64,000 nt of DNA from Azolla caroliniana (taxonomy: Eukaryota > Plantae > Polypodiophyta). Of the stretch, positions 37,282 through 64,000 are shown one piece after another; the stretch's first letter is position 1; each line of letters begins with the position of its first letter. The stretch covers positions 12,400,001-12,464,000 of the forward strand of contig JBHGNT010000013.1 of the NCBI GenBank assembly GCA_043228905.1, written 5' to 3'. The position numbers were made by a program, and so were the translations under genes. The notes under the pieces are model-generated. The model ran no database searches, was not told the origin of the DNA, and was given only the letters and a program-made list of their open reading frames with translations.

Positions 37282-37908
37282 TGTCGCGTTGTTACACTCT
37301 CACGTAGGAACTAAGGCGGGGACTACAGGGGCCTTGGACCGAGGAATACCCAAAACAGAGGGAGGAGCAAGGTGAAACAATGGGTTGGCAAGTACCGGCT
37401 ACCGGCAAGTAGGTACGCAGTGCTCATCGTGTGAACGATCCTCGACTCGTGCTTGCCGGCTCAACGACTACCACGGTAGTGTACAAAGAATGAACAGTAA
37501 CACACACTCGTCTAGTTTCGTGCCAACAATCGGCCAAGACACACACACAAATACGTAGAGGACTCACAAACAAGGAATCGATTAAGACAACTAGGCGAAT
37601 ACAAAGCTTTTCGAGATTACAACCGGCAAGCCGGTGAGCGACCACGCGCAAACACCCACACACACACAGAGCACACAGTGGAGCCTCAACCGAAGCGCAC
37701 GGGCTTCTCCCTTGAGCAAAGGCAACCGACCAAAAACTGTAGAGCTCAACGAAGAAAAATGAGAAGAGTGCTCAGTTCCCGGTCCGACAGCACTTCGTCC
37801 TCCCAAAACGCGATAGATGTTCAACCATTTTCCCTTTTCTTTTATAGGCCGCCGGGGAGGGCCATCACATCCTGAATACATCATCTTTATTCTTTGTCCC
37901 TTTGGACA

Positions 37909-38655
37909 TGACGGGAGCTCAAGGCTCCTTATGCGCAACGCTCGGCCACAACCGAGCTTAGAATGATACACAGAAAACGGGAGATAAAGCACGACAAGAA
38001 GAAGAGGAAAATACACAGGAGGTTTAACGTGGAAAACCCCAAACTAGGGGAAAAACCACGGCAGCCCACAGGCTGCAAACTGTCACTATGTAAGAATATA
38101 CAACAGTGAGTTTATTGAGGCACTGACCTCGTGCTCACAGATCTTCGCCACAGGCGGCGGTTACAACAGAGGCAACGACCTCTCTCTCTCTCTCTCTCTG
38201 TACAGTTACGCACACTCTCTATTCTTGCACCAACCAGAATGACAACAACAACACCTAAAGGTTTGCCCTAAGTCATATTTATACTAATATGACTTTTTGG
38301 CTATTTACAAATGTAGCCTCGATGGGCTCTCAGAAACATATTAACGAATATGTCTCTTCCTCCGGTTCTCACCGGGTCTGCGTCATCCGGCTCTCCGTAG
38401 CCGGGTGCTCCTCATCCAGCTCTCACCGGTTCTGCACCATCCGGCTCTCCGTAGCCGGGTACTCCTCATCCGGTTCACACCGGGCCTGCACCATCCGGCT
38501 CTCCGTAGCTGGGTACTCCTCATCCGGTTCACACCGGGCCTGCACCATCCGGCTCTCCGTAGCCGGGTACTCCTCATCCGGTTTCGGCCTTGGCCGAGAT
38601 TGTTCGTCGACACTGTTCTTCTCCCTTCCCATCCGGAGGGACCTGTCTCCCAACA
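37909..38655 (-). mobile_element. Copia solo LTR inside the gypsy LTR
   Basis: TGACGGGAG...CCCAACA with internal tandem repeats. Flanked by a 139-bp duplication rather than a 5-bp TSD. Confidence 0.88.
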
Positions 38656-40885: not shown

Positions 40886-40937
<52 letters not shown>

Positions 40938-41223
40938 ATGATGATGCGAAAGGTATATGTATTATATGAAGGAAGATATACAACAGTAGTTAGAAGGCTT
41001 AAGACTGGCGTTGAACCGATTTGGTTCGAACTAATGCCTTGCGCCTCCTTTTATAGTGTCTTCAGGAATACTCCTGAAGTTTCTAGAATGTTCCAGAGAA
41101 ATCTGGAATATACATCAATTTCCCAATAAAACCTAAGTGAAAATAATATCCTTCAAATTACAATTCATAACCTAATGGTAAAGTCTCGACCCGTGTAACA
41201 AAAGGTTATGGGTTCGAGTCTAG

Positions 41224-44200: not shown

Positions 44201-44820
44201 TACTGACGATACTTCTCGGGAAGTTGAACGGTGGACTCCTCTTTGGTGGTACTGGAGGGTTGTACTGATATTGCGAAGAGAAACATTTCCTCCTTGCGCC
44301 CTTCCTCACGCAACTGACGTAGCGAAATGGTTGCAACCTTCTGGGTAGATCCTTGGGTTTGTCGCAACCGGATTTCCCTTGTCCTCCAATCTATGTCTGG
44401 GTTATGTAACTCGAACCATGGTAATCCTAAAACTATGGGATGTTCTGGAATACTAATAATATTAAATGATACTACACATGTTAAGTTATCTAGGACAATA
44501 TTAACGGGTTCCGACTCTTCTATGATATTACCAGAAGCAATGGGACGACCATCAATGACTACTACTGAGGCTGGACATGGGAGCTTTCTGAGAGATATCT
44601 GATGAGCTCGGGCAAAATTCCTATCCATGAAGCAAGAATTAGCTCCGGAATCTAGAAGGGCTACGGTATGTACTGGAGGGGTACTTTTAGTACTAACTGC
44701 TACTTGGGCTACGAACACATCACTAACTTGCTTAGAGGGAATGGAACCACTAATGGGCTGCACAGATCTAGGGCTGTCCAACCAAACGGCTCCTATTTTG
44801 GCTGGACTTAGTCGTTTAAC
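41224..44820 (-). CDS. pol: Pol (PR-RT-RH-INT-chromodomain), in the -1 frame relative to gag
   Basis: LLDSGAN; YLDD; IEADASDFALG; HDTYTAGH...CDTC; SDRGPQF; GPF module; chromodomain YEVAAILDSK...YLVDWLGYSPSERTWEP. Confidence 0.97.
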   Translation of the reverse strand, partial: VKRLSPAKIGAVWLDSPRSVQPISGSIPSKQVSDVFVAQVAVSTKSTPPVHTVALLDSGANSCFMDRNFARAHQISLRKLPCPASVVVIDGRPIASGNIIEESEPVNIVLDNLTCVVSFNIISIPEHPIVLGLPWFELHNPDIDWRTREIRLRQTQGSTQKVATISLRQLREEGRKEEMFLFAISVQPSSTTKEESTVQLPEKYRQYADVFDKVQANTLPHHRPYDCAIDLQPGKEPPWGPIYNLSPTELEVLRAYIEENLENGFIRHSKSPAGAPIFFVKKKDGSLRLVVDYRGLNKVTVRNRYALPLISSLLERINGARFFTKIDLRGAYNLVRIRPGDEWKTAFRTRYGHFEYTVMPFGLTNAPAVFQHMANDIFRDLLDDFLIIYLDDLLVYSKTQEEHDSHVLLVLKRLREHGLYAKLEKCSFGCNQVEFLGYVISSEGISIDPAKVKTVIEWHTPRSVRDVQCFLGFANFYRKFIQNYSKIVLPLTQLTRKGQSFIWSKETDMAFESLKKAFTSAPILGHVDPEKPFIIEADASDFALGSILSQQGNDEKLHPVAFHSRKFNAAEINYEIHDKELLAIVDSFMQWRHFLEGSPHQVTVFSDHKNLAYFQDARVLNRRQARWAHFLTRFDFKITYRPGKHQGKADALSRRSYLTPRPGEPAFDNQKQVILGPARLQAAQVFDMPVDSDITNTIREDLKTDAFAQAILAQIDPSRASCSQSQSPGTDYRQFKYCDGLLFFKELLYVPNGSCRLRVVQNCHDTYTAGHFGSTKTLDLVQRSFWWPRMRQFVEDFVRTCDTCCRAKMPRHHPYGLLEPLPIPSKPWQSIALDFITDLPVSKGFSAILTVVDRYTKMAHFLPCTKEISSEDTAEIVMREVCRHHGLPDNIISDRGPQFVSKFWKHLFKMLKVTCHLSSGYHPQTDGQAERTNQTLEQYLRCFLNYHQNDWADILQFAEFAYNNAIHASTKVTPFYAYTGYHPRWCVLETPEVSTNPCAEDRLERLRKIQADLSTQLQQAQQSHKDYADRHRLPSSFNIGDRVWLLRRHIKTTRPCEKLDYRRLGPFRIIGKINDVAFRLELPPQLRIHPVFHSSLLEPYHESTIPGRTIQPPPPIELEDGPEYEVAAILDSKIVRNKLYYLVDWLGYSPSERTWEPIENVTNARALLEDFHRRYPEKPGPQSKTTRGTRRFKGGIVS

Positions 44821-45977
44821 TCTTCTTCTAATTGGCTAAGGACATCAAATTTGTTTGCGAGATTCGGACTATTAGTACTATTAGGACTATTATGACTATG
44901 AGGACTATCAGAGATTCCTACTGAAATAGACTCGGGTTTAGTATAGTCAGAACTAACAACGACTTGGTTTACCTGCCTTCTTGGTCTATGGGGACAGTTT
45001 ATCGCGATATGCCCTGGTCCACCGCAATAAAGGCATAATCGGTTTGTTCGGCGTCGTTGCTTTTCCTCCTCCGATAGCGGCCCACGACGACGTGTAGTGT
45101 CAATTTCCATTGGAGTTGGAGTACTTACTGGAGGCGCATTATGTGACTCCCTTTGAAAAGGTTTTGCTACCACTGAGGCATAGGTAGGCTCGGATTTTGC
45201 CCTCGGCATCTGAAATTGCCGTTCCGAACGTCGCTCGAAGAGGCAGTTGTCACATCTGACCGCTCGACTGATTGCTTCTGTTAATGATTTTGGCTCTTCA
45301 GGGAAAGTCAAGAGTAAATCCTTGACATCGTTGCGTAGACCATAGCGGAACTGCTCCATCAATGCTTGATCATCCCAGGGGATATCGGCGGCGAGTAGGC
45401 GGAAATCTGCAGCATATGCGGAGGCTGGACGGTCACCTTGGCGTAATCGCCGGATTTTGTTGATTGCAGTCCTTATGCTGTCAGTATCTCCAAAACATGC
45501 TTTAAACTCACTTATGAATTCTTCAAAATTATTTAGTACTGGAGATTCCTTTTCTAGTAGCGGAGCGAACCATGCTAATGCTGAGCCATTTAACAACGTG
45601 CCTACTAAACCCACTCGTGATGCATCGGTGGGATATCGGGACGGATGCATTTGAATAACTAACCGTACCTGGTTAAGAAACCCTCTAAACTGCGATCGCG
45701 TTCCATCGAACTTCGTGGGAAGGCCAATCTTGGGTTCTTTATGAATCCCTTGTGCTCCGTGCCCTTGTTGTTGCATTGCTACGATGGTTGCTTCGAGTTG
45801 TTGCACGCGTAACGCAAGTTCCCCATGCTGTTGTTGCGTTTGCTGCTTTTCTAAGGAAATTTGCTGAAGATCCCCCAACAAGCGTTGATTTTCTTGTTCC
45901 AAAGCATGAAACTTCTCTTTCAAGCATTGAAATTCCGAGAAAACGGATTGATACTCTTCAGCGCTAACGGTGGCCAT
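44808..45977 (-). CDS. gag: Gag (coiled coil, PEG10/sushi-like capsid, CCHC knuckle)
   Basis: 389-aa ORF: LPTKFDGTRSQFRGFLNQ...LNGSALAWF, LRQGDRPASAYAADF, PMEID, CLYCGGPGHIAINC. Confidence 0.96.
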   Translation of the reverse strand: MATVSAEEYQSVFSEFQCLKEKFHALEQENQRLLGDLQQISLEKQQTQQQHGELALRVQQLEATIVAMQQQGHGAQGIHKEPKIGLPTKFDGTRSQFRGFLNQVRLVIQMHPSRYPTDASRVGLVGTLLNGSALAWFAPLLEKESPVLNNFEEFISEFKACFGDTDSIRTAINKIRRLRQGDRPASAYAADFRLLAADIPWDDQALMEQFRYGLRNDVKDLLLTFPEEPKSLTEAISRAVRCDNCLFERRSERQFQMPRAKSEPTYASVVAKPFQRESHNAPPVSTPTPMEIDTTRRRGPLSEEEKQRRRTNRLCLYCGGPGHIAINCPHRPRRQVNQVVVSSDYTKPESISVGISDSPHSHNSPNSTNSPNLANKFDVLSQLEEELND

Positions 45978-46211
45978 GGGATGAAGGAAAAGGGAAATAA
46001 GAGACTAATAGGAAAGGAGGGAGACAGAAGGAAGAGGGAGAGAAAAGACCAGACAGGCACCGGGAAATCGGTTCAAACTGTCAGGAACTCTATTAAGGCA
46101 GAGAAGGAATTAGTACTAAAAGAAGGATTAGTACTATTGTCGGGGAATAGTACTAAGACAGAGAAGGATTAGTACTATGAGAGGTGTCGAACTTTGAGAG
46201 AAGGAATGGGT

Positions 46212-46257
<46 letters not shown>

Positions 46258-48137
46258 ATGATGATGCGAAAGGTATATGTATTATATGAAGGAAGATATA
46301 CAACAGTAGTTAGAAGGCTTAAGACTGGCGTTGAACCGATTTGGTTCGAACTAATGCCTTGCGCCTCCTTTTATAGTGTCTTCAGGAATACTCCTGAAGT
46401 TTCTAGAATGTTCCAGAGAAATCTGGAATATACATCAATTTCCCAATAAAACCTAAGTGAAAATAATATCCTTCAAATTACAATTCATAACCTAATGGTA
46501 AAGTCTCGACCCGTGTAACAAAAGGTTATGGGTTCGAGTCTAGTTATGACAGGCGTATCCTTGCTATCACTCGCTAAGTACTTTCACCCCGAACCGGATG
46601 GCGAACCTCGTGTTGTTCTCGTCCTCCTGGTTGATCACCCATCCTATCCCAATCAGACTTGTGTCTACGGTCACGTAAATCGGGACCTCCTTACCGTAAA
46701 GTGCTTTGAAGAGTGTCGGTGATGCGGTAAGCTCTTCTTTCAGTCTCCGGACCACCTCCATATGTTTCCCGCTCCACTCGAACTTGCACCCTGTCTTTAG
46801 CAACCCATACAGTGGCTCCGCGACGTGTGTGTAGTGCGGAATCCAGATGTGGTAGAACGCGCACGCGCCCAAGAACCTCCGGACTTCCATAACCAACTTG
46901 CAGTCTTCCTTCATTGTGGAGATGGCTTCTACCTTTGCCCGGGATGGTTTTTGGCCATAAGGTCCGCACAGGTGACCGACGACCATGATCTCTAACTGCC
47001 CGAAAGCCGATTTCTCTCCGGAGAAGGTGAGTCGTGCGCTCTCGAGTCTCTGTAGCACCCTCTCGCAGTCGTCGATGTGGTCCGCCACGAATCTCTGACA
47101 ACCGTCTGACCCAACCGATTCGTCCTCATCTTCCACCAGGCATCCTTTTATCAGGATGTCGTCCAAGAATGGCATGGTGATTTTTGGAATGCACTCCTTC
47201 AGCACTTTGTTCATCGCATTCACCGTGTGCGCCACCGAGTTGGTCCCTCCTTGTGGTAGGGTACACATCCACACTAGGCCGAGAGGAGTCCGCATCCTCC
47301 ACGGCTAGTTGGAACTGATTGTACCCCGAGTACAGGTCACTGACTGAATAGATCGACCTTCTGACGAAGGCCTTCACGAACTCGTCAATGGTCGGTCCGA
47401 TTCCTGTGTTCTGAATGGTCACTTTAATGACTGGTTCCAGGTCTTGAATGAAGTGCAGCGTGTTGTTCTTCTTCGACACGGTAAACCACCGATTTGAATA
47501 TGGGGCACTCGACGGCTCTAGGATGCCCATCTCCACCTTCTACTTCAATAGCTCCATCAACTTCGGGATGTGAGCTCTTGGTGCCGGAATTGGCTTGAGA
47601 TTCCACGACACATGCGGTACTATGAAAATCACCATTGGTTCCACGATCGTTGAGTCTACGCACCCGATCTCCTCTGGTGAGAATGTGAAGGCCTTCCCGT
47701 GCCTTCTGAGCATTCTCCAAAACCGCTCCTCCTCCGCTGATAGTAGGAAGCCACCCCCACCAACCTTGAGCTCCCGTAGCGTTGTGTTGATGAACCGGTG
47801 TTCTATGTCGGCCGGATTCTGCAAACTTGGGTCCGACGCGACCCCTTTCATTCGTTCCTCATTGCCCTCTGGTAAGGGTGCCGCAATTGGCCTCACCTTC
47901 TAGTCGACAGTCTTGTACCTCGTATCCATGCGGGCCGTTCGATCCAACTTGACCCTTTCCCCGAAGTCGGCAATGACTTCGTACATCTCCACCGAGTTAA
48001 CTGAAATCACTCGGTCTTCACTGATGCCTTCTTCGATCACCTTTCCCATTTCCCCCAGGGTGTCATCGAAAGAGACCACCTCCACGGCGCTGCTAATTTC
48101 TTCGTCGGGACTGAGGGCTCCGCACTCTCTAAACCGT

Positions 48138-48928
48138 TGTGGTGAAGATTTTCGGCAATAGTGTGAAACTTGTGAGGAATATACGAAATCGAGTGTGGTT
48201 CTTCTCATGAAATATAAAACAATAATAGTGAAGATACTATTTAAATAAGTTTAATATCTTGGTACAAACAGATAGAGGTCTTGAAGAGCTTTTGAATGCA
48301 CTTTACTAGGTAGGAAACTGACATCTAAGTGTCAAGTTATGTGGTTATGAAGTTTGCAAAGAAGAAGAGAAAAATAAAACAATGTGATATCCCACATAGA
48401 CAGGACAAATAAGGATCCCACCATATATAAGGGAGAGCAAAAGCTATTATCTTTTTGTCTATGTGTGGAGCATAGAAAGGTTAAGTTGTATGACTTAACA
48501 AATAGATGTGGGATACTATTTAAATAAGTTTAATATCTTGGTACAAACAGATAGAGGTCTTGAAGAGCTTTTGAATGCACTTTACTAGGTAGGAAACTGA
48601 CATCTAAGTGTCAAGTTATGTGGGTATGAAGTTTGCAAAGAAGAAGAGAAAAAAAACGATGTTGTATCCCACATAGACAGGACAAATAAGGATCCCACAT
48701 ATATAAGGGAAAGCAAAAGCTATTATCTTTGTGTCTATGTGTGGAGCATAGAAAGGTTAAGTTGTATGACTTAACAAATGGATGTAGCCAAATGCACATA
48801 ACTATGTGTTTTGGACGGATCCGGCGACTGACGGTAACCAACAGTAACTGACGACGGCGACCGACGGAGCAGGCGAGACAATGACCGGATAGAGAAACAC
48901 CTTGTAATATATACATATACATATACAT

Positions 48929-48961
<33 letters not shown>

Positions 48962-49359
48962 AAAGGAGTGCAAGTGAAGATTTGATCCCTGCACCTCCAA
49001 GTTGAGAGTCTATAGGCTTACCATTAAGCCAAAATCAATTCTTTAAGAGTTATATTTTTATCAGCAATTTTACATGTAAATTCTCATGTGTGAGAGCTTA
49101 GATGATGACATGGCAAGCATACATTGTGTGCATTGCATGCATTTCATGTATTCCATGCATGTCTTGCACCCTCACATGCACCATATGCATGGGGGCATCT
49201 ATAAAAAAGTGAAGGAATCAAGCAAAGTCAAGCGTTCTATCTTATCTCAAGCTCTCTCTCTCTTTCAATATATCTTAAATACTTTCTCGCTAAAGCTTGT
49301 GCAAACTTTGAATCCTTCCGTTCTAGAACCCCGGCGGTTCCGCCTCACGATCCGCACGT
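48138..49359 (+). mobile_element. Trp-family LTR (5' part) with an internal 279-bp tandem duplication and a (TA)/(CATA) microsatellite
   Basis: TGTGGTGAAGATTTTCGG start; 48233-48511 repeated from 48512; TATAAAA at about 49200; interrupted at 49360. Confidence 0.75.
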
Positions 49360-52300
49360 TGTCGCGGTATTCCGTGGGTACGTGTAGGATCTTAGGTAGG
49401 ACCGCGGGGGTCTTGGACTAGGGAGACGGATGGTGGAGTCCTTAAGCTTTGTAGGCTTCGGTTCGGAATCGGCTTCCGGCTCCAACAAATGTAGGGTTTC
49501 ACAAAAGCCGGTTCACCGCGAATATGGACCCGACTCAAATATGTTACAAGGGAGATAGATATACACTAACATGAATATATATTACAAGAGTCTTACAACA
49601 AGACGGTTACATGCACCGAATCCGGTGGCTATTACAAACAACCGGCTAATACATCAAGATAAGAATAGGGGACCGGTAAAGGCGAGTCAAGTGGGCCGCC
49701 GGGACCACGACGTCCATCGTTGGTCACGCCCCGAAGATGATGGAGTGTTCCTGTGCCACTTTGCCCTCGCTTCTCGAACCGGCCGCCATGCGAAACGCTC
49801 TCCATTGAGGTGAGAAAAATCAAACCTCCAATTGCCGCCACCGGAATGTCGAAGAGCCGCTGTCGTAGAAACCCCTAACCAAAACCGTAACTCGACCAAG
49901 AAGAAGGTAAACCCAAAACCCCAAGCTTATGAAACCTAGATCACATAAAGAAACCTAAAACCCTAAATCCCCCATAATCTCTCACAAGATGAAGAATGAG
50001 ACGAAGTACTAACCCTCCACTCAAGAAGAAGGAATCAAACCCATAAGACAAAGAAGAAGAAGACCCTAAATGAAACCCTAAACGAAATAGGCTGAAAAGA
50101 CCAAAGTAGAAACCCTAAGGGAACAAGAATAAGATGAAGAGGAAGCACACTACCAAACCCTAGACCTGAGTGGTATACCCTCCTAATTCAAAATAGGCAA
50201 CCCTTCACAAGGGACCCCTCCCTTCCTTTTATAGCCCAAGGAGGGAGGAATGTTACAATGTGGGATCAATACTCCCGTTTATTCTATACATTGTTTTCCT
50301 ACTATACATGTGTAGATGCTGCACACCACCGACTTGCCCTATTCCACCTCGGTTTCACACTGTAGCCGAAAATCTTCACGACATCCACCCCCACCAAACC
50401 GCACGTCCACCGGTATGGGCCAAAAAAGGAAAAGGGTGAGAGATTTCGGCGACGGTGATCAACCGGGTTTTGCGCCTTCCTGGCACCCGACCGTCTTGTT
50501 GGCTCCTTACCGTCCCCGACTCGTCGGCTCCATCCGATCCACCATATCTGACGTTCGCGCCTCCTTCCCGATCGGTCCTCCCGAACACCTCCACACACTG
50601 ACTCTCTCCGCTCCACGCTCGCCTTCCGTAGGCTCTTCCCATGTGCCATTGTCGTCCTCTGAATGCGTGCTCGTTCTTCGGTCCTTAGGTGACCCCATTA
50701 CGCGCTCCTTCTTTCTACCTCACTCACTCCCCTCTCTCTCGATAGAGCGTGCCGTCAGCCCGACCTCCGTGTCGGTGCCCTTCGCGTCATCCTGGTTGCC
50801 ATCCTGTGTTATTGCCCATCGCCTTCGTCCCCTCGTCGCCACCTTCCTTCTCCTTGGTCTTACGTTGCCTCAGCGGCTTGAACTGCCAAAGTCTCCAGAA
50901 CCGGTGTGGAGGATCCCTCTCCGGCCTTCCGTTCGAGACCACCTAGACTGGAAACCATCCTTCGCGCCTATACTCCTTTTCGGCACCTCCGTGTGCCGAC
51001 ATTCCCTCGTAGTTCAGCACCACCGTGGCGAATTCCGATTACCCTTCCACACGCTATCATGAAGAAAACCGGTGTCGTGAAGATTTTCGTCCACAAGCGG
51101 AAACCCGAGCAACGAGAGCCAAAGAGCGATGTGCAACGTTGCACACGTACATAATGTATTTGTAATAGTAATAAAGGTATAAAGGTGATGTGGTTGTACG
51201 CGCATCCACGCCAGAGAGAGAGAGAGAGAGGTACTATGCGGTACATAGGTACCTAGTTGTTTGTGAGGAGGTGGGAGTTAAGGGGCCATCAATCTCACCT
51301 TCCCCCAAATCAAGGCAAATATCCCCTTTGAATGAAAGGGGATATTTTAGTCTCACTTTTGTAAGCGGTCTTCCCTCCTTGTGCTATAAAAGGAGAGAGA
51401 AGGCACCATTGTGGGGGTTGCCTATTTTGTGTGAGTAAGGTATACCACTTAGTCGAGGGTTCTACTTCTTCCCATTTTGTTTTAGGGTTAGGGTTTCGGT
51501 TAGGGTTTCAGTTAGGGTTTTCTTCTTGGGTTTTCCTTTAGGGTTTTTCATATAGTCGTTCGGTGCGGCCATGGCGGCCACCATTTGTTGTAATCATTCA
51601 TTTCTTAATAGAACTTCTTCTTGAGTATCTTGATTGCATCTTCTTCTTCTATCATAATGTCATATTCGTTCTCTTATCCTCTTGAGCTAATCTTTCTCCT
51701 CCACTCCCTAGTCCAAGACCCCCGTGGTCCCGCCCTTCTACACGCACGCGCGTAACAACGCGACATATTTGGTGAACCCGACGTGAAGGGCGGCAAGGGA
51801 GCATGGAGATTGAAGAAGACTTTGACTTCGAGGAGATGATGGCAAAGATTGTGATGGAAGCCGGACGGAAGATGGTGAAGCGAGATGCAGCTCAACAAGC
51901 CGTCGAAAGGGTGGTCAATCGAGTCGGCCGGTTCAATGGGAATGAGGTCCTAAAAATTTTGGGAGCCTACAAGGCCGAGATGGCGAAAGGGGGCGTGGAC
52001 GAGGCGATGCAACTGGAGTATTTTCCGCGAGTGGCGCCCGTATCGGTGCACAAGGACGTCAAGGAGCTATGAGAAGCTCACGAGTCATGGGAGTCCTTCA
52101 AGGGAGCTCTATTGGAAGCGTACGGATACGCGAAACCGGAGTGGGTATACGGGCAACCCGATGGGGAGCGGTCGGCTACAACATGGCCCGCGAACGGTGG
52201 AGAAGAGAGAGCGGCGAGTGAGTACGCACTACCGCTGGAAGAGAGCTCAACGCAAAACGGTTCGGAGGAGCTCGACCTAGAAGCGCTAGTACGGGAGGCA

Positions 52301-53360
52301 TGCGAGCTTGTGAAGGGGAAAATCGAAGCCGAAGAAGGGCTTATTATGGAGTCGAGCCGGAGGCGATCGAAGGATGAGGAGGCCGAAAGAGAATGATACA
52401 TCGGTACCACGGGAGAGGGTGCGGAGCGAGCCACCCTCTCGACATGCGGAGAAAGATCGATCGAGGACGAGGTCGGGGACGGTGAGGCGGCGATCGCAGA
52501 TTCGAGCGGACATGAGGGAGTTCGGGCATGGAGGCCCGAAACATCGAGCGGGGAGAAGACGGGCGGTGTTGCCGTGACCTTACGCACACCGGGCCAAGAG
52601 ACTCCGGCAACCGGCCCGAGAGCCGGTGTGAGACCTAGAGTGACGGGCGGTGGCGGCGGCAAGGCGGGCGACCACGACGACGACGATGTGGGAGAGGGTG
52701 TGGGAAGAGCGACTCTCTCATCTTGTGGCGAATGGACGGCCATGGAGGCCGGTAACTACGGATTCGGGACATGGCAGCCCGAAACATCGAGGGAGGAGGA
52801 GACAAGCGGCGGTGCCGCGACCTTATGCACACCGGGCCTAGAGACTCCGGCAACCGGCCCGAGAGCCGGTGTGGGACGTAGAGTGACGGACGGTGGCGGC
52901 GACAAGGCGGGCAACCGAGACAACGGTAAGGAGACCGTCGAAGAGGAGGCGGCAAGAATAATTGATGCTTGCATATACGGAGGCGGGGTAGCCACGGACG
53001 ACTATGTCCGAATGGAGGTGGCTACGGGCATAGCATCGATGGGCGGCGGCGTTGCTTCCTTACACGCACCGGTTCAAGAGACCCCGGCAACCGGCCCGAG
53101 TGCCTGCGTGAGACCTAGGGTAATGAACGGTGGCGGTGGCAAGGCGGACGACCACGGCGACGATGTGGGAGAGGGTGCGGAGCGAGCGACCCTCTCGACT
53201 TGTGGAAAGAGGACGGCCATGGATGAGGCCGATATCTACGGAGCAATGGACGCCACTTCGAGAGTGGGCGAAAGTTTCGGGACGCGGTTGCCCGAAACGT
53301 TCTACGAGGATTTGGTGAGCATACTTGAGGGTTGCGAAATCGAGGATGAAGAGGAGACGA

Positions 53361-56300
53361 TGTCGTAGTGTATTTTGTACACTACGTGAAAAACGTATAT
53401 AGTATTAGATTCAATAAAAAAATGAAGAAATAGAAGAAAATAGCAAAATAAATGAAACATGCATAGGGCAAGATTCGAACCTTGCACCTCCATGTTAATA
53501 ATGTAATGTCTTACCATTACACTAGCATTTCATTAGTGTTAAAGCATAGATGTCCCACATAGAAAGGTAAATTCACGCTAGGATAAACATTAGAAAAACG
53601 CATAACAAAAGAAAAAGCTACACATACACATCTAACGTGCATGATAAAAAACGCACAAGTTAGAAAAAAAAGCATGATCACTTTAGATCAAGCATATAGT
53701 CTATCTATAGGAAAAGCATGGGGTCTATAGTTAGAGAAAAAGCATGGATTACTAAGACTTCCTCATCACTACATAAGGATGGGGAGCACAATGTAATTGT
53801 GTGTGAAATATTTGGAAATTGGATATATTTCCGAAAACACCAACCGATTAATATAATCGTGGGATTCACGAAAATAATATAATCTATACTTGTGGGATTC
53901 ACAAGTTTCTTATATCTTTCTTTCAATCTAAATACATATTCTTATCTAAATATTGATTAATCGAATACAATACACTCGTGGGATTCACGAAATTTCTATC
54001 TCTCTTTCTAATAATCTATTCATTACTAGCCTCATCTCATATTCTTCTTTCTCCTAGTCCAAAACCTCGGCGGTTCCCACCCGACTCACGCAAACGATCC
54101 GGAGCCGAAAGGCACGACACAGTTGGTGAACCCGACGTGAAGGCGGGTGGCAAGGAGATGGAGAATCAACAAGAGGCAATGAGCATAACGATGATGATGA
54201 TGTTCGAGCGGATGCTACAAGAACAATGGGTGATGTCGGAGATCACGGGGGCAGTAAAGCGGCTCGTACAACGAAACGGACAATTCAACGGAAATGATGT
54301 GTCACGCTATCTACATGACTACAAGGCGGAGATGATACGATGTGGGATACCAGAAGGATTGCAAGTGACATCCTTCAATCGGGTAGCCACGGATGAGTTA
54401 CAAGAAAGAATCTACAAGATACGGCAACAAAATTCGACATGGGGGTCATTCGAAGAAGCTTTACGAGAGGCATATGATTACAAGAGATCGAAGGGAAAAG
54501 ATCGGCGAGAATTCGACGAATGGGTGGCATCGGAGAAGACCCACCGAAGTGCAACACAAGCATTCCTAGAGTTCGAGAATCGTTTTGCTCGACTCTCGGA
54601 GCGGGAACAACGATTGGTGGGAGAGGATAAAGTCCTAATGTTCGTAAAATCGATCGATCGAAAAGAAAGGATGGACATCGGGATCGAACTCGAAGATGAT
54701 GACGGTGCGAACGGTCTTACTGAGGATTGGGCCAAAGTCGAAAGGGTATGCCGGAGACATGATGAGAGGAAGATGAGAATCTTGTCAACGACATGGCCGA
54801 TGAAGGATGGTCGATTGAAGACAAACGATGGAGCCGATATGAAGGCCGAAATACAACATGATGGTGCGACGGAAGAGGGTGTAAAACAAGCTACCCTCTT
54901 GTCTTGCGAAAGAACAACGATGAAGGATAAGGCCGATAACCCAAGTGTAGAAGAAGATTTCAGAATACAAGTGTCCGAAACATCGGGTGAAAAAGGGGTA
55001 AGCATAATTGATGCAGTGAAAGAGAGCAAAGAGGACTTGATTGAGGAGGTCGCCACGAAAGATGACATCGAATCGAAGGTGGCTATGGACGAATCAACGA
55101 CGGATGGCCATATCGAGACTTCCCCACCACTGATTCTAGAGACTCCGGCGGTTGCATTCGAAAGGCAACGTGAGACCGAAGAGACGGAAGGTGGTGGAGA
55201 GAAAACAAAGGTCGAAGTCGATGCATACGACAGAGAGATAGCCGAGAATATGGCTATGGGTGAAACAATGGAGGATGATAATACCGAGGATTCCTACCCA
55301 CTAATTCTAGAGACTTCGGCGGTTGTGTCTGAGAAGCAACATGAGACCGGAGAGACGGGAGGTGGCGGCAAGAAAGGTAAAGTCGGAAGCCAGTTAGGAT
55401 GGAAGGTGATCCGGACGGGATTCCGATCTGAAAGAAAGCCGAACCGGGTAAAAGAGGATTCGACCGAAAGTCGACCCGAAAGAAAGCCGAACCGAAAGGA
55501 AGAGAATTCGACCGAAAGACGACACAAACGAAAGCCGAACCGGGCAAATGAGGATTCGGCCGAAAGACGACCCGAAAGAAAGCCGACCCGAAAAGGGGTC
55601 GACTCGGTCAAAACCGATCGACCGAGTCTGACTTGGCCGAACGCGAATATGGATGGAAGCCGACCTAGCCGAAAGCCGATCGGACGAGACCGATCCGGAA
55701 AGAAGCTAATCCGACTCAATCGGAGGTTGGACCAGTCGAGGCTGGTGAAAACGAGGAAAAGAAAGCCAACCGAAACCGAAACCGATAGATCGAAACCGGG
55801 CCGGAAGGAGACCGACTCAATCGAAACCAAACAACCGATTCCGATTCGGCCGAATATGAATCCGATCGGACGCCGATCAAACCAAAAGTCGATCGGACGA
55901 GAGCGATCCGGAAAAAAGTCAAGGTTGATGAAGACAAGAAAGAGGCCAGTAAAAGACACTACCACGAATGACAAGGGCCAAGAATATGACGAGAGAGAAC
56001 AAAGAATATGGTGGATCGGATGGCGACAATGGTTCGGGTGGAAAGAATGGGTCTACTCAAAATGGAGAGACAAAGTTGACATAGCGGGACAAACGGAGGA
56101 TGAAGGGGAGACAACGAGCATCGGCAACTTCGGCACATACCGGAGGATGTGCGGGTTCGGAGGGGGCGAGTGTCGTAGTGTATTTTGTACACTACGTGAA
56201 AAAGTAAAAATAATATAACCGATTTAATTACATATAAATAAATAAAATAAGAATATCAAGATATTTATCACGTGCATAGGGCAAGATTCAAACCTTGTAC

Positions 56301-56894
56301 CTCCACGTAGCCAAACCTCAACTTTACCATTATGCTACCTTATCTTTAGTGTTCTATAAATAGATTTAATAACTATAAGTGCTTTATTTGCGCCTACCTT
56401 TATTAAAAGGTAAATCATGTATATTTAGAGTGCGTGAATATTTTATAGAAAACCGCAAGCAACTAAAAAGTGACTCATGCACATCTAGCGTGCATGAGCA
56501 CTATATTTAGCAAATAAAAGCAAGGATTAGAAAAGCATCACATGCACATTTAGTGTGCATGAACATATTAGAAAAAAAGCATGTAGCTATGCTTAGTCTC
56601 TCCCATCACTATATAAGGATGGGGAGCACATTGTAGTTTTTGTTGATTATTTTTCTATAATGATCAATCAATCTAAAATATTCGTGGGATTCACGAATTT
56701 GCTAAAATAATTCTCTCTTACTACCTAAATATTGACTAAATATACTAAACTCGTGGGATTCACGAGATTCTTATCTTATAACTCTTTATACCTATTCTTT
56801 ACTAGCCTTATTTGTATTCTTCTTTCTCCTAGTCCAAAACCTCGGCGGTTCCCACCCGACTCACGCAAACGATCCGGAGCCGAAAGGCACGACA
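53361..56894 (+). mobile_element. Non-autonomous Trp-family element (LTRs 53361-54119 and 56171-56894)
   Basis: TSD ACGA/ACGA; Trp PBS at 54124; PPT GGAGGGGGCGAG; single long ORF. Confidence 0.9.
54158..56218 (+). CDS. Gag-derived protein with acidic and basic repeats and a Trp-rich C-terminus
   Basis: Uninterrupted ORF from the ATG just after the PBS. N-terminus (GQFNGNDVSRYL...TWGSFEEAL...FLEFENRFARL) is homologous to the gag remnants at 51803 and 60087. Confidence 0.7.
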   Translation: MENQQEAMSITMMMMFERMLQEQWVMSEITGAVKRLVQRNGQFNGNDVSRYLHDYKAEMIRCGIPEGLQVTSFNRVATDELQERIYKIRQQNSTWGSFEEALREAYDYKRSKGKDRREFDEWVASEKTHRSATQAFLEFENRFARLSEREQRLVGEDKVLMFVKSIDRKERMDIGIELEDDDGANGLTEDWAKVERVCRRHDERKMRILSTTWPMKDGRLKTNDGADMKAEIQHDGATEEGVKQATLLSCERTTMKDKADNPSVEEDFRIQVSETSGEKGVSIIDAVKESKEDLIEEVATKDDIESKVAMDESTTDGHIETSPPLILETPAVAFERQRETEETEGGGEKTKVEVDAYDREIAENMAMGETMEDDNTEDSYPLILETSAVVSEKQHETGETGGGGKKGKVGSQLGWKVIRTGFRSERKPNRVKEDSTESRPERKPNRKEENSTERRHKRKPNRANEDSAERRPERKPTRKGVDSVKTDRPSLTWPNANMDGSRPSRKPIGRDRSGKKLIRLNRRLDQSRLVKTRKRKPTETETDRSKPGRKETDSIETKQPIPIRPNMNPIGRRSNQKSIGRERSGKKSRLMKTRKRPVKDTTTNDKGQEYDEREQRIWWIGWRQWFGWKEWVYSKWRDKVDIAGQTEDEGETTSIGNFGTYRRMCGFGGGECRSVFCTLREKVKII

Positions 56895-59800
56895 ACGAGC
56901 GGCGGTGCCGCGACCTTCCACACACCGGTCCTAGAGACTCCGGCAACCGGCCCGAGAACCGGTGTGAGACCTAGAGAGACGGATGGTGGCGGCGGCAAGG
57001 CGGGCAACCGAAATGACGAAGAGGAGGTTTGTAGCGGACAGAGGCGAGATCCCTCGACACCGGGGCCGGAGACTTCGGCGGTTGTGTCCGAGCACGGACA
57101 TAAGACCGAGGAGATGGGCGGTGGCCGTGAGGATGAGAGGCCCATAGTGGGCACGTGCGAAAAGACCGAAGGAGAGGTCCGGAGCGGCATCGAGGAGCGA
57201 GTCGGGAACCAACCCGACCGAAAGATGAGCCGGTCAGTAATCCGACCTGACCGGGAGTCGGAGCGGAAGAAGAGTGAAGCGGGGGCCGGTCAACCGGGCA
57301 CGAACCGAAGGAAGCCGGCAAGACCGGGATTGTTTGATCAATTCGTAGCCGGCCGGGTACGGTTACGGTGGGAGCCGGTGAGAGCGATAAGGAGGCCTAG
57401 TGGGCATGGTGATCACGGCTTGCTAGAAGACCGAGAGCGAGAGGGACCTTCCACACCCATTCTAGAGACTTCGGCGGTTGCGGATCAACGTGAGACCGGA
57501 GAGACGGCGGGTGGCAACGAGGAGTTGGAGACTGACGCGGAGGTCGGGTCTACGGCGGAAGCACGACACGAGATGCGTGCAATACGGCCGGTGGAGGGCC
57601 AAGACACAAGCATGCATACGGCGGACGGGCAACAACGATTGACCGACGATGACGGTCGGATCAAGCCTTCGAGAGGCAAACGCGGGACGAAGGACGGCGT
57701 GGCGAAACACCAAGATCGACGACATGGGCTGAGCGCGATCGGCATGAGTGGAGAGTCGTATCTAGGAAAACGGAGGAGATGCGCGGAGAACAACGGGACA
57801 CACACCGGGAAGAGAAAGTGTGGCGGTTTCCCGGAGGGCATACAAGGCCAAGCAAGCCAAGAGGGCGCAAGTCAAGGCGAGGCGATAACGAGAGCCTCGA
57901 GGGAGACTGACACGGAGGTCGGGATGACGATACGCTCTACTACAAGAGAGCACGGCGAAAAAGGGGAAAGCGAAAAACGCGTGATGGGGTCATCGAAGGA
58001 CCGAAGCACGAGCACGCATTCGGAGGGCAACATCGACATACGGGGAAATCCTACGGAAGGCAAGCGCGGAGCGGAGAGAGTCGGCACGCCGAGGTGTGCA
58101 ACACGCAAAGGGCGGAATCCGGCATGTGACCGGGAGCGCATCTGGGGGATATACGAGGCGGACAAAGGAAGAGCAACCGGGTCGGCGACGACGTACGGGA
58201 GGACCGAACGGGGAGGAAAGCACGGGCATCGGATACGGCGGGTCAGATGTAGTCGGTGGTTCAAGGACCCACGGTGGACGTGGCGGATCGGGTGGAGGCA
58301 ACGACTCGCCGAACATCGTCGAGTGTGGCGGATCGGATGGCGCCGACGGTTCGAGACCATTCGGCGAGGATGGTGGGCCGGAAGGCGGCGGTGGTTCGTG
58401 TGGACAGGGTGGTCTTGCTCGAAGTGGAAGACAAAGCCGGGCGGGCCCACGAGGACGCTAAGGACTCGGTCGGTCGTCGTGGCCGAAAATCTCGTGTTCT
58501 CTCCCCTATGTTTTGGCACATACCGGAGGATGTGCGGTTAGGTGGGGGCGGATGTCGTGAAGATTTTCGTCCACAAGCGGAAACCCGAGCAACGAGACCC
58601 AAAGAGCGATGTGCACTGTTGCACACGTACATAATGTATTTGTAATAGTAATAAAGGTATAAAGGTGATGTGGTTGTACGCGCATCCACACGAGAGAGAG
58701 AGAGAGGTACTATGCGATACATAGGTACCTAGTTGTTTGTGAGGAGGTGGGAGTTAAGGGGCCATCAATCTCACCTTCCCCCAAATCAAGGCAAATATCC
58801 CCTTTGAATGAAAGGGGATATTTTAGTCTCACTTTTGTAAGCGGTCTTCCCTCCTTGTGCTATAAAAGGAGAGAGAAGGCACCATTGTGGGGGTTGCCTA
58901 TTTTGTGTGAGTAAGGTATACCACTTAGTCGAGGGTTCTACTTCTTCCCATTTCGTTTTAGGGTTAGGGTTTCGGTTAGGGTTTTCTTCTTGGGTTTTCC
59001 TTTAGGGATTTTCATATAGTCGTTTGATGCGGCCATGGCGGCCACCATTTGTTGTAATCGTTCATTTCTTAATAGAACTTCTTGTTGAGTATCTTGATTG
59101 CATCTTCTTCTTCTATCATAATGTCATATTCGTTCTCTTATCCTCTTGAGCTAATCTTTCTCCTCCACTCCCTAGTCCAAGACCCCCGTGGTCCTGCCCT
59201 TCTACACGCACGCGCGTAACAACGCGACACCGGCCATAGGTGGAATCGGAGAAAAAGGCGCATGAACCGGCGCTCATATAGGTGGATGCGAGAATTGATA
59301 TTGTGGCCATAATTCATAATTAGGTTGGCTGATGTAAATACTAGGTAGTACATATTTATTAGAAGATTGGTGCATATCTCTGTAAAAAGGGACAGGGAAT
59401 AAAGCAATTTGACTAGGGGAAGAACAGTCCCCTTTTTGTGAACTATTTAAGGAGGGAGAGAGGGAAGAAAGGGGATCATGCGTTGACGAGGACGAAGTGC
59501 GGCTACCGAACTGAGTGTCGAGCTCTCTCTTCTCCTCCGATCGTCGGTCTATGTGGGTGTCGGGAGTTCGCTGCCTCTGCTTCGTTGACAACCCGTGTGC
59601 TTCCAGCAGAGGCTCTCCCCTTTTTGTTTCTTTGAGAGCAGTGTGTTCTGTTTGTGTGCGTGAGTAGGATCCCCGTGTCGGGTCCATCGCGGCCTTGCCG
59701 GTTGTAATCGTTAGAGTTTGTAATCTTTTGATATTGTAATCGATGGTTACTGTAATTAAGTGTTCCTTTTCTTTCTCTTTCCTTCTCCCTTCTGCGTATC

Positions 59801-61249
59801 TGCAAATCTTTTCCCCTCTCCTCTTCTCTCTCTCTCTCTCTCCCGCTCCTCGGTTCAAGGCCCCTGTGGTCCCGCCTCTTTCTACACGCACGCGCGTAAC
59901 AACACGACATCATTGGTGAACCCGACGGGAAAAGGCGGCAAAGGAGTCGAAAGATGAGGGGATCAGAGCTAGCAGATGCAATGGCGGTAGTCGTCGACCG
60001 GTTGGTAAGCGCTCGTGAGGGAACGGGTACCCTCGACAGAGAAGTACCGGTTTGACGACTCACTTTAGCTGTCGACGCGGGACTTCATGGCGTGGGTGGA
60101 AAGCCCCAGAAAGGGGAGGAACATGTCGGCGTTGCTCCAGGAGTTCGAAAAACGGTTCGCACGGCTGTCGACGCTCAAAACGAGTCGAGTACTATTGTTT
60201 GTTAAGTCGGTGGACGTGCTCGACAGGGAAAAGGTGGGTCCCCTATTGGAAATGGATGAAGGGGTCACGGTAGATTGGGCGGTGGTAAAACGGGTCTGCA
60301 GCCGTTTCGACAAGCGGCGCGATTGGAGCAACGAAAGCTCGTCGGGGTCAGGGCCAGTCCCGACGAGGAGGCTCGAGGAGCCGGTGTCGGTGCCAGCCGG
60401 TAGGAAGGAAGAGACCCGAATTTGGCTGGAGTTGGGGTCGGCATCGAACGACGTGGTTAGAGGCCCATTCGGAGGAGCTGACACAGATGGTGCGCGACCT
60501 GCAGATCGCACAGGCACGGAGAGACAGCGGCGAACAACCTCGCGAACGGAAGCCGCCTACTGGGCAGCGGTGCATGTGGTGTGACGCGATCGGTCACATT
60601 CAGAAGGATTGCGCGGATTTCGCCGACGCGCTCAGGACCAACATGGTGTACCTCTGGAACGGGCGGGTGCACGCGAGTGGGACCTGGAGAGCCCTAGAAC
60701 TAAATGAAGAGGTTGATGGAAGAGGCCGCGGCACGACACGTAGAAGCCGTTAACTACTCAGTGTCGGCGGGAATTCGGGTCGGGGGTGATGAGACCCGGA
60801 AGGTGAAGGACTCCGGATTCTGGCCGCTAGTGCTAGAAGGCCTCTCCGAAGTTCGGCTGAAGAAGGAAGAGGCGGACCACGCGGAACAACGGGTCCAGGA
60901 GGTCACCGGATGGGACGATTCGGTCGAATAGAAAACGGGCTTCGTAGAAGCCGCTTGCCAAAACTATGAGGTTTTGGTGGAAGACAAACGGGCAGGAAAG
61001 GCCGGGGGGGTCCGTCCCCCGAAGAGGTACGAGACCCGGTTCAGACCGAAACCGACCGGTGCCGGCAACCCAGGCGCACCGGACGGAAAGAAGCAGGCGG
61101 GATTTCGGTTGAGCACCGAAATCGAGAGAGCAACGGACCTACAGAAGGTCCTTGAAGAGTGGATCCTCGATGAGGAACGATTGCAGGTCGGTCTCAGAGG
61201 TCCGCAGATTCTTGGGAGCATGCTCGTTCTACCACATTTGGATCCCGCA

Positions 61250-63039
61250 CATCGGGTGGGTGATCAACTAGGAGGACGAGGACGGCGCACGGTTCCCGAT
61301 CCGGTTCGGGGCAAAGGTATTGAGCGAGCGACAGCGGGGATACGCCCAAGTCAAGCGCGAACTTTGGGGTATCATTTCGGTAGTCAAGGCCGATAGGGAC
61401 TACCTGATCGGGACGGAGGTAACAATCGAGACGAACTGCCTGCCGATACTCGGCATGGTTTCCAGATGCGCGACGCCGGACCTAGCAATGCTCCGGTGGA
61501 TAGCGTACATTAAGTCCCTGAACCCGGAGATATGGCACATCTCCAGAAAGGATAACGCCATGGCCGACATGCTTTCGTGAGCAAGGTTCAACGACGAAGA
61601 CGACATGGTTTCGGATGGCGAAGAAGTCGGCGAGGACTTCTTCGGGTCGGCTAATGTGATGACGAGGAAAGGGGACAATGCGGCGCTTAACGAATTTGAT
61701 GAAAGCAGGTACAACAGGGAGTGGCTCCAAATCGGGAGGTTCCTACGGGCGATGACGCCAGACGCAGTGTGGATGAGAGAAGAGGCGAGCCGGGTACGGA
61801 AGAAGGCGTACCGATTCTTCCTACGGGACGGGTGCATATGGAGGCACCCAAAGAAAAGAAACGGCATCCCGCTCCGAGTAGTGGCAAAGAAAGAAGAACA
61901 GGAGGAACTACTGGCGGCATTTCACGAGAGTCCCTGGGCCGGGCACCGCGGAACGTGGGCCACGTTCGAGAAGCTGAAGGAGAAGTACTGGTGGCTAGGG
62001 CTGTACCAGGACGTGCATCAGTTGGTAACGACTTGCGAAAGCTGTCAGATGCACTCCGTTACACCCGACTTACCCGCTTGCGGTCCATTTCAAGTGGATG
62101 GTGGACTTGGTGACGATGCCGATGGGAGTAGGACAGATGCGATACCTGGTGCTTGCGCGGGAAGACTTAATGAACCAGGTGGAAGGTCGTGCACTGCAGA
62201 ACAAGACAACCACAGCGGTATGCCGATTCCTGATCGAAGAGGTGGTGTGTCGGTACGGGTGCGTCAGGAGGATCGTGGCGGACCGGGGAGAGCTGGATGC
62301 GCGGGAAGCCAAGGAGCTGTTGGACCAGCTAGGGGTCAAACTCTCCCTCACTACGGCGTACAATCCAGAGGGGAACGGGAAGGTAGAACGTGGGCACGGG
62401 CCGATCGTAAAGGCGTTCGTGTGTACATGCAGAGGGCAGGTCGGCAATTGGTCGTGGCTCCTTCCATACGCACTATGGGCGGACCGAACTACGCATAGTT
62501 AAGTGACAGGGTTTATGCCGGCTGAGCTGATGTACCGACAGAAACTGATCATGCCGGTGGAACGGACGGTTTCTTCATGGGCGGCGGTAGATTGGAAGGA
62601 CGAGATGAGCCAGGAGGGGTTGCTAGCGGCGTGGATTCAGCAACTTGAGCGGAGGCCGGAGGATGTGAAACGAGCGAAGGAAAAGCTGCAAGCAGCAAGG
62701 GAGCGGAACAAGACCCGGTTCAACCGGACGCACCGGTTGCGACCAAAGAAGATCGAGGAAGGCGACTGGGTCTTGGTATACGACAACAGCCTCGACAATC
62801 AGCACAAGGCGGTGCGAAAGTTCGCTAAGAGATGGTTCGGGTCCTACACGGTGACGAGCGCGAATGACAACGGCACGTACTACCTCGCGGAACTCGATGG
62901 GACACGATTAGCAGTACCAATGGTCGGGAAGCAGATCAAAGCGTTCAAGAAGCGGTTCGAAGACGAGCCGGCGCCGGCGAGCGAGAGCGACGACGACGAT
63001 CGGTTCGGGCCCGACGGAGAATCGGAGAGTGACGAGTGA
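61250..63039 (+). pseudogene. pol: RNase H plus integrase remnant
   Basis: GYAQVKRELWG; HESPWAGH...CESC; IVADRGELD...YNPEGNGKVERGH. Frameshifted. Confidence 0.9.
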
Positions 63040-64000
63040 GGCCGGTTTTCTTCGGTATCTACCCGTCTCTGGCGCATGCCGGTGGATGCGCGGTTTGGTG
63101 GGGGTGGATGTCATGAAGAAAACCGGCCATAGGCGGAATCGGAGAGAAAGGCGCATGAACCGGCGCTCACATAGGTGGACGCGAGTATTGATATTGTGGT
63201 CATAATTCATAATTAGGTCGGTTGATGTAAATACAAGGTAGTACATATTTATTAGAAGATTGGTGCGTATCTCTGTAAAAAGGGACAGGGAATAAAGCAA
63301 TTTGACTAGGGGAAGAACGATCCCCTTTTTGTGAACTATTTAAGGAGGAAGAGAGGGAAGAAAGGGGATCGCGCGTTGGCGAGGACGAAGTGCTAGTGCA
63401 GAACTGAGTGCCGAGCTCTCTCTTCTCCTCCGATCGTCAGTCTCTATGGGTGTCGGGAGTTCGCTGCCTCTGCTTCGTTGACAGCCCGTGTGCTTCCAGC
63501 AGAGGCTCTCCCCTTTTTGTTTCTTTGAGAGCAGTGTGTTCTGTTTGTGTGCGTGAGTAGGATCCCCGTGTTGGGTCCATCGCCGCCTTGCCAGTTGTAA
63601 TCGTCAGAGTTTGTAATCTCCTGATATTGTAATCGACGGTTACTGTAATTAAGTGTTTCGTTTCTTTTTCTTTCCTTCTCCCTTCTGCGTATCTGCAAAT
63701 CTCTTCCCCTCTCCTCTTCTCTCTCTCTCTCTCTCTCTCGCTCCTTGGTTCAAGGCCCCTGTGGTCCGCCTCTTTCTACACACACGAGCGTAACAACGCG
63801 ACAACGCATTGTCGGCCTTTGCCCGGCCAGATCGTGCATCGTCTTCCTCTCTGCTTACCGGTGTCCTCTGTGTCCGAGGAACACCCTGTAGTAGCCCGCT
63901 TGGCCCCCTTTCGTTTCGCGCCACTGCGACCGGTCTGAAGCCTTCTGCTTGCCATCGTCCTCTCGCCCCCACCGGCTTGTCATCTCAATCTTGGCTTGCC

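What the first reader, a model, noticed from the sequence alone, without database searches (positions are those of the whole stretch)
48134..63807. Trp-primed gypsy family inserts at CpG-centred 4-bp targets (nCGn)
Seen, paired TSDs: ACGC (51051/63804), CCGG (51069/59230), ACGA (53357/56895). Single flanks: ACGG (1237), GCGG (36732), CCGT (48134), ACGT (49356), and CTGT (37278, explicable by CpG decay). One exception is AATA (22784, boundary uncertain). So 7 of 9 junctions are literal nCGn, including one in an AT-rich host. Copia and chromovirus insertions here show unrelated 5-bp TSDs. Inference: an integrase with CpG (possibly methylation-state) specificity, which would also explain self-nesting into CpG-rich relatives.
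Basis: partly seen in the sequence, partly recalled or inferred. Interest (0 to 1): 0.78.

Follow-up and report, generated by a model that had tools for sequence, protein, structure and literature searches.

The report
Phygy-type retrotransposons inserting at CpG
These nested jumping genes really do land on CG pairs, at about four insertions in five, but that habit is already published for the Phygy group of moss retrotransposons, to which they likely belong, and whether they sense DNA methylation is untested.

Summary
Three paired 4-bp target duplications (ACGC, CCGG, ACGA) are exactly where stated. Outside the window, 53 of 69 independent 5' flanks from public contigs are CG-centred, against a 4% background. 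Another 14 are TG, CA or TA, consistent with CpG decay; 0 of 13 unrelated chance matches are CG-centred.

The feature is published. Neumann et al. 2019 list Phygy elements with 4-bp NCGN duplications (100%) and a tRNA-Trp primer site (81%). This family shares those traits, lacks a chromodomain and an archaeal RNase H, and matches Physcomitrium proteins in gene order. A tree with true REXdb Phygy references could not be built.

One refinement was not found in my searches: T first or A last is avoided (1 of 132 positions, about 50 expected). This gives VCGB, a narrowed form of the foamy-virus VYRB consensus, and points to target reading by the integrase itself. No methyl-CpG reader domain was found. 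Methylation dependence is untested, and self-nesting is rare outside this window (6 of 65).

The parts
51055..63803 (+). Element A: Trp-primed Ty3/gypsy, internally deleted (gag, zinc knuckle, RNase H, integrase; most of protease and RT missing; frames broken). 5' LTR 51055-59909 split by B; 3' LTR 63109-63803; PBS 59914; PPT 63097. TSD ACGC at 51051 and 63804. Inserted in D.
   Evidence: LTRs 93.8% identical
51073..59229 (+). Element B: non-autonomous member, LTRs 51073-51765 and 58553-59229, PBS 51770, PPT 58541. TSD CCGG at 51069 and 59230. Inserted 18 bases inside the 5' LTR of A.
   Evidence: LTRs 98.2% identical; empty site seen in the 3' LTR of A
53361..56894 (+). Element C: non-autonomous member, LTRs 53361-54119 and 56171-56894, PBS 54124. 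TSD ACGA at 53357 and 56895. Inserted in B. Its two LTRs are only 80.5% identical.
49360..51050 (-). Element D: 3' LTR 50383-49360, PPT 50395-50384 and internal sequence; continues beyond A at 63808. Single flank ACGT at 49356. Inserted in the LTR tip of E.
48138..49355 (+). Element E: LTR start, interrupted by D. Single flank CCGT at 48134. Inserted in the protease region of F5.
37282..48133 (-). Element F5: 3' LTR 38961-37282 and pol (protease, RT, RNase H, integrase; frames broken), split by a chromovirus at 40753-46551. Single flank CTGT at 37278 (possible decayed CCGT). Inserted in the LTR of F4.
36736..37277 (-). Element F4: LTR end. Single flank GCGG at 36732. Inserted in a copia gag.
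35207..35520 (-). Single flank CCTG at 35203-35206, not nCGn. Inserted in family internal sequence. Right-hand limit approximate.
22788..23546 (-). Element F2: 3' LTR with PPT 23558-23547. Flank AATA at 22784, not nCGn; a copia LTR ends 5 bases away and the LTR tip is degenerate.
521..1236 (+). Element F1: 3' LTR with PPT 509-520. Single flank ACGG at 1237. Inserted in a chromovirus-like element.
62029..63039 (+). Integrase core and C-terminal part of A, read with X at one stop: DDE core and SH3-like end, no chromodomain, then a short acidic tail.

Best explanation
This is a tRNA-Trp-primed, non-chromovirus Ty3/gypsy family, likely of the Phygy lineage, whose insertions duplicate four bases centred on CG, most likely because its integrase itself reads a VCGB target. 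Shown: the 4-bp duplication, the central CG, the avoidance of T first and A last, the Trp primer site, and the absence of chromodomain, archaeal RNase H or any Pfam methyl-CpG reader. Inferred by analogy with foamy-virus intasomes: two active sites cut 4 bases apart, the target is kinked at the central pyrimidine-purine step, and the edge bases are read from the C-terminal domain. Inferred and untested: extra base contacts, possibly from the long conserved C-terminal loop, narrow YR to CG. Inferred: most TG, CA and TA flanks are later deamination of methylated CG. CpG preference adds a modest bias toward the family's own CpG-rich interior, but the deep nest here is probably mostly a local heterochromatic pile-up.
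For: Flanks: 53 of 69 de-duplicated 5' flanks CG-centred against 0.040 background, p 5e-60; 48 of 63 in the stricter BLAST-confirmed set; 0 of 13 unrelated matches. 9 of 11 3' flanks (one shared with the 5' set). Majority flank in three sequencing runs of different studies ends GCGT, CCGG, ACGT (11, 7 and 3 contigs). CG is 53 of 67 YR-centred flanks against 16.5% of background YR steps. T first or A last: 1 of 132 positions, 49.9 expected, and 0 of 20 positions in the 3' set. PFV's duplication consensus is VYRB with T and A disfavoured at the edges (PMC4422553 passages). Phygy: 4 bp NCGN 100%, tRNA-Trp 81%, no extra domain (PMC6317226 supplement). Physcomitrium patens proteins match gag, zinc knuckle, linker and protease/RT start of this family in order and do not hit the window's chromoviruses. 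Per-copy CpG decay between LTR pairs of A, B, C and one copia is 10-16%, near the 14 of 67 decayed-looking flanks. Integrase folds like PFV and Ty3 integrases.
Against: No REXdb Phygy RT or integrase sequence was available, so clade membership rests on features and on gag/protease similarity of only 23-43% to the window (up to 55% to relative P0003). Flanks with TG, CA or TA do not sit on more diverged LTRs than CG flanks (median 0.93 vs 0.92, p 0.83), so decay is not shown by age. Four solo-LTR-like contigs have unequal 5' and 3' flanks, which I attribute to collapsed assembly but did not test. In the window 2 of 10 junctions do not fit, and element C's duplication ACGA has the otherwise avoided last A. 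The conserved C-terminal loop is predicted with low confidence (pLDDT under 50 at 310-319) and no residue-level alignment to PFV Arg329 was obtained. All outside family flanks come from one series of related assemblies.
Confidence: 0.72

Rival explanations
1. The integrase or a host partner distinguishes methylated from unmethylated CG, so insertion is steered by methylation state.
For: Targets are CG steps in transposon-rich DNA; 14 of 67 YR flanks look deaminated, so these CGs were probably methylated at some time; 7 of 10 window insertions lie in family DNA.
Against: No chromodomain, MBD, SRA or CXXC hit in integrase or pol of the family and relatives. Decay after insertion says nothing about the state at insertion. 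CG-rich 4-bp targets occur in Ginger1 (CCGG, CCGT) and in Drosophila errantiviruses (CGCG); that flies have little CpG methylation is recalled, not checked. Host flanks range from 0 to 0.11 CpG per base.
Confidence: 0.14
2. The integrase prefers any flexible YR step with CG on top, and the TG and CA flanks are true second-choice targets, not decay.
For: All 4-bp retroviruses favour central YR. No age difference between CG and TG/CA flanks.
Against: TA is rare: 1 of 14 non-CG YR flanks where 31% is expected, p 0.04. The amount fits measured CpG decay. Neumann's young intact Phygy copies are listed as NCGN.
Confidence: 0.15
3. The family is TatI or a separate, unnamed non-chromovirus lineage that shares the Trp primer and 4-bp duplication with Phygy.
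For: TatI also has 4-bp duplications and a Trp primer. Phygy was defined from one moss only. No direct tree against REXdb.
Against: TatI carries an archaeal RNase H in 100% of its 4 elements; here protease, RT, RNase H and integrase follow without one, and close relatives show no such Pfam domain. Phygy is the only non-chromovirus clade named from P. patens in the section read, and P. patens proteins match this family.
Confidence: 0.08
4. The CG belongs to the element's own ends or is a boundary artefact.
For: Only three window elements have both ends.
Against: The empty site in A's 3' LTR holds one CCGG. The inner LTR ends are followed by a different spacer and the primer site, or preceded by the PPT. 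Outer bases vary among 69 loci.
Confidence: 0.01

Closest known systems
Phygy lineage of non-chromovirus Ty3/gypsy (Neumann et al. 2019, PMC6317226; passages, section 9 and supplementary table 5 read)
   Same: 4-bp NCGN duplication, tRNA-Trp primer site, no chromodomain, no archaeal RNase H; P. patens proteins match in gene order.
   Different: Described there as specific to Physcomitrella patens; this host appears to be another non-seed plant, with relatives in Riccia, Adiantum and Ceratopteris. Outer bases here are not free (VCGB). A, B and C are short deleted copies (about 4.6, 4.6 and 3.5 kb without nested inserts) against 7.7-10 kb.
Prototype foamy virus and other 4-bp retroviral integrases (Serrao et al. 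2015, PMC4422553; passages read)
   Same: 4-bp stagger, central YR, T and A disfavoured at the edges (VYRB); same integrase fold.
   Different: Retroviral preference is weak; here about 77% of flanks are CG. The position of PFV Ala188 is Glu in 38 of 43 relatives. The base just outside the duplication favours C (28 of 69) rather than PFV's G/T.
Ginger1 DNA transposons (Bao et al. 2010, PMC2836005; passages read)
   Same: Gypsy-like integrase with GPY/F motif; 4-bp CG-centred duplications (CCGG 75%, CCGT/ACGG 24%).
   Different: DNA transposons with terminal inverted repeats, no RT; narrower target, with CCGG on top rather than ACGT.
Drosophila errantiviruses with sequence-specific targets (PMC5408687; passages read)
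   Same: Ty3/gypsy elements with palindromic 4-bp targets, one of them CGCG.
   Different: CGCG is centred on GC, not CG; different ends (AGT) and an env gene.
TatI and Selgy lineages (PMC6317226 supplementary table 5)
   Same: 4-bp duplications; TatI is Trp-primed.
   Different: TatI has an archaeal RNase H, Selgy is Ala-primed, and no NCGN motif is listed for either.

Membership tests
Phygy | Clade by RT-RH-INT phylogeny with REXdb Phygy elements | not testable with these tools
   The REXdb sequence file was too large to read. My tree had no Phygy or Tat references; it shows only that F5 nests among relatives that include Riccia and Adiantum proteins, far from the window's chromovirus.
Phygy | Homology to Physcomitrium patens non-chromovirus elements | tested here: met
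   39 P. patens proteins found through a Riccia relative; 38 hit the family's gag, knuckle, linker or protease/RT start, none hits the chromoviruses. That these proteins are Phygy is inferred.
Phygy | 4-bp target duplication | tested here: met
   3 of 3 paired elements; no 5- or 6-bp match
Phygy | NCGN motif | tested here: met
   7 of 10 window junctions, 53 of 69 and 9 of 11 outside flanks
Phygy | tRNA-Trp primer binding site | tested here: met
Same PBS motif in A, B, C and six outside loci.
Phygy | No chromodomain and no archaeal RNase H | tested here: met
   No Chromo hit, and no separate RNase H beyond the RT-linked one, in window pieces or five relatives; one sub-threshold RVT_3 hit overlaps the normal RNase H of P0024
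Phygy | Length 7.7-10 kb with coding sequence filling the interior | tested here: inconclusive
   No complete autonomous copy lies in the window; A, B and C are deleted derivatives
TatI | Archaeal RNase H in the polyprotein | tested here: not met
Selgy | tRNA-Ala primer site | tested here: not met
   The PBS is the Trp type (assignment recalled)
Chromovirus (Tcn1 and others) | Chromodomain after integrase; mostly 5-bp duplication | tested here: not met
   No chromodomain; RT-RH piece only 25% identical to the window's chromovirus
Fungal Ylt1-like elements | Clade membership by RT phylogeny | not tested
   No named fungal protein among the 120 listed hits of each of the three searches; the passages read on Ylt1 gave no target motif

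The most novel reading that the evidence does not exclude
Phygy-type integrases read the methylation state of the CG they cut, so a lineage spread through mosses, liverworts and ferns aims itself at silenced (or at open) DNA through the integrase's target face alone, without a chromodomain or host tether.
Probability: 0.14. Interest if true: 0.72.

Novelty: new member of a known kind. Interest (0 to 1): 0.24.

Why it matters
The core claim is published, so the finding mostly extends it. It shows the NCGN habit in a host other than the moss where it was described, and sharpens it to VCGB, which ties it to the retroviral VYRB rule and suggests how it works. A strongly CG-specific integrase in heavily methylated plant genomes is a simple system for asking whether 5-methylcytosine guides integration. 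Each insertion also copies a CG site, so the family keeps making new targets, including at its own junctions (L088).

Tried and rejected
No whole genome is held for this window, so a true genome-wide logo and background were not possible. Viral contigs gave one chance match and no integrase relative. Cluster look-up of ten close relatives gave no organism names. The first read-laying could not separate genomic flanks from the primer-site spacer and is not counted. An age test of CG versus TG/CA flanks found no difference. Four solo-LTR-like contigs did not give matching pairs and were not used as paired duplications. Pfam DUF4100 hits the Riccia relative P0024 but not the window's own degenerate piece. 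The structure model (mean pLDDT 69.6, pTM 0.52) confirmed the fold but could not place the C-terminal loop on DNA. Papers whose passages gave nothing on this motif: PMC12581995, PMC4522978, PMC5014426, PMC6839031. A 1992 paper on CpG methylation and retroviral integration was seen only as a reference title and is not held.
Full report
What the window is. The window is a pile of nested LTR retrotransposons. No whole genome is held. A motif scan and self-comparison and direct reading find ten insertions of one Ty3/gypsy family with LTRs starting TGTC, a shared polypurine tract and a shared primer site. The nesting order is F4 < F5 < E < D < A < B < C. LTR identities are 93.8% for A and 98.2% for B, as expected for B inside A.

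Checking the observation. The three paired duplications match at 4 bases and not at 5 or 6. The intact 3' LTR of A carries B's empty site with one CCGG, so the duplication is not a boundary artefact. The count is 7 literal nCGn, 1 possible decay product and 2 misfits out of 10. Against the CpG frequency of each host (0.02-0.11) the chance of 7 or more is 1.6e-7. Four copia and chromovirus elements have 5-bp duplications: GGCGT, TCAAG, CCTTC, AGAAG.

Test outside the window. They hold 125 matches: 23 preceded by the polypurine tract (inner ends, dropped), 67 with a BLAST hit to the family, 6 more rescued by similarity of the next bases, and 29 unrelated matches. After removing duplicates, 69 family flanks remain: centre CG 53, CA 7, TG 6, TA 1, AG 2. 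Background CG in the same hosts is 0.040 (p 5e-60). The stricter set gives 48 of 63. The 13 distinct unrelated matches give 0 CG. LTR ends in the same loci give 9 of 11 CG, 1 TG, 1 GG. Contigs from three sequencing runs of different studies give majority flanks ending GCGT, CCGG and ACGT (the fourth run showed no such row among those listed). Limits: all family loci come from one series of related assemblies, the host species may differ slightly from the window's, and four solo-LTR-like contigs had unequal flanks, probably through collapsed assembly.

A refinement. Among the 66 CG, TG or CA flanks, the first base is A 39, C 13, G 13, T 1 and the last is T 38, G 18, C 10, A 0. T first or A last occurs at 1 of 132 positions where host CG contexts predict 49.9. 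The 3' set agrees (0 of 20). The target is therefore VCGB with ACGT on top. Element C in the window (ACGA) is an exception.

What it is. Neumann et al. 2019 (PMC6317226; passages, section 9 and supplementary table 5 read) state that Phygy elements have an insertion preference for NCGN, and list 186 elements with 4-bp duplications (100%), tRNA-Trp priming (81%) and no extra domain. Jedlicka et al. 2019 (PMC6911290, passages) also saw GC-rich centres in 4-bp duplications. The family here has protease, RT, RNase H and integrase in a row with no chromodomain and no archaeal RNase H, which excludes chromoviruses and TatI. Named relatives at about 47-64% identity come from Riccia, Adiantum and Ceratopteris. 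Searching with a Riccia relative found 39 Physcomitrium patens proteins; 38 hit this family's gag, knuckle, linker or protease/RT start and none hits the window's chromoviruses. I could not read the REXdb sequence file or the per-element table, so the defining tree was not built; my tree (40 rows, one short chromovirus piece left out) has no Phygy or Tat references. Phygy has also been annotated in a liverwort genome (PMC12885004, passages).

How it most likely works. Serrao et al. 2015 (PMC4422553, passages) give the foamy-virus duplication consensus as VYRB: the target is kinked at a central pyrimidine-purine step, T and A are disfavoured at the edges, Arg329 of the C-terminal domain contacts the edge bases and Ala188 contacts bases further out. 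VCGB is that rule with YR narrowed to CG, and the integrase has the same fold. Plain YR preference is not enough: CG is 53 of 67 YR flanks against 16.5% of background YR steps. Across 43 relatives the Ala188 position is Glu in 38, and a long C-terminal loop is strongly conserved. That loop is my candidate for reading the CG; this is inference, the loop is poorly predicted, and its match to the Arg329 loop rests on recall. CG-centred 4-bp targets are also known for the gypsy-like integrase of Ginger1 (PMC2836005, passages), and CGCG for some fly errantiviruses (PMC5408687, passages).

Decay or second choice. CpG decay between paired LTRs of A, B, C and one copia is 10-16% per copy, close to the 14 of 67 flanks that look decayed, and TA is rarer than a general YR preference predicts (p 0.04). 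Against this, those flanks do not sit on more diverged LTRs (p 0.83). I favour decay, without proof.

Methylation and self-nesting. Nothing here tests methylation at the time of insertion, and no reader domain was found. CpG density is 0.067 per base in family DNA (0.090 in its interior), 0.043 in other elements and 0.016 elsewhere, so CG preference gives a modest bias toward self. Seven of ten window insertions are in family DNA, but only 6 of 65 classifiable outside hosts are (4 more too short). That outside count is biased low, because assemblies lose repeat-in-repeat junctions and my references came from the window only.

Novelty. The trait is in print for Phygy. I did not find the VCGB refinement, a mechanism, or a methylation test for Phygy in searches; Neumann's Additional file 1, which I could not see, may already show the refinement. 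Verdict: a real feature, a likely new member of a known lineage, low to moderate interest.

Noticed in passing
window 53361-54119 and 56171-56894: Element C's two LTRs are only 80.5% identical although C sits inside B (98.2%) with a matching duplication; the first 33 and last about 80 bases are identical. This breaks nest dating and suggests a hybrid made by template switching between two subfamilies, gene conversion of one LTR, or mis-assembly.
   Followed up: partly
window 9564-12558: Short LTR element (LTRs about 94% identical) whose primer-site motif recurs in reverse two bases before the 3' LTR, in place of a polypurine tract. This matches the tRNA-Arg 'anti-PBS' family in earlier notes on this genome.
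   Followed up: partly
window about 10380-10640: Inside that element lies a captured gene piece that reads like the transit peptide and start of an organellar Hsp70 (identity recalled, not scanned).
   Followed up: no
L088 (minus strand, about 296-300): An LTR end, ACGT and an LTR start abut, as if one element inserted into the target duplication of another.
   Followed up: no
window 51766-51769, 54120-54123, 59910-59913; L005, L031, L043, L053, L065, L077: The gap between the LTR end and the primer site is 4 bases or more (4 to 8) and variable, longer than the 1-3 bases I recall as usual.
   Followed up: no
window 40753-46551: Chromovirus with identical LTRs over 473 aligned bases and long open gag and pol frames including a chromodomain; a very recent insertion. 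Its 5-bp duplication GGCGT contains an off-centre CG.
   Followed up: no
window 37770-37902 and 38656-38788: A copia solo LTR inside the LTR of F5 is flanked by a 133-base direct duplication (97%) instead of a 5-bp one.
   Followed up: no
window 12570-13760 and 19140-19880: Two related arrays of a near-palindromic TAGCTAATTAGCTA repeat in opposite orientation, possibly the subterminal repeats of a CACTA-like DNA transposon around 12.6-19.9 kb.
   Followed up: no
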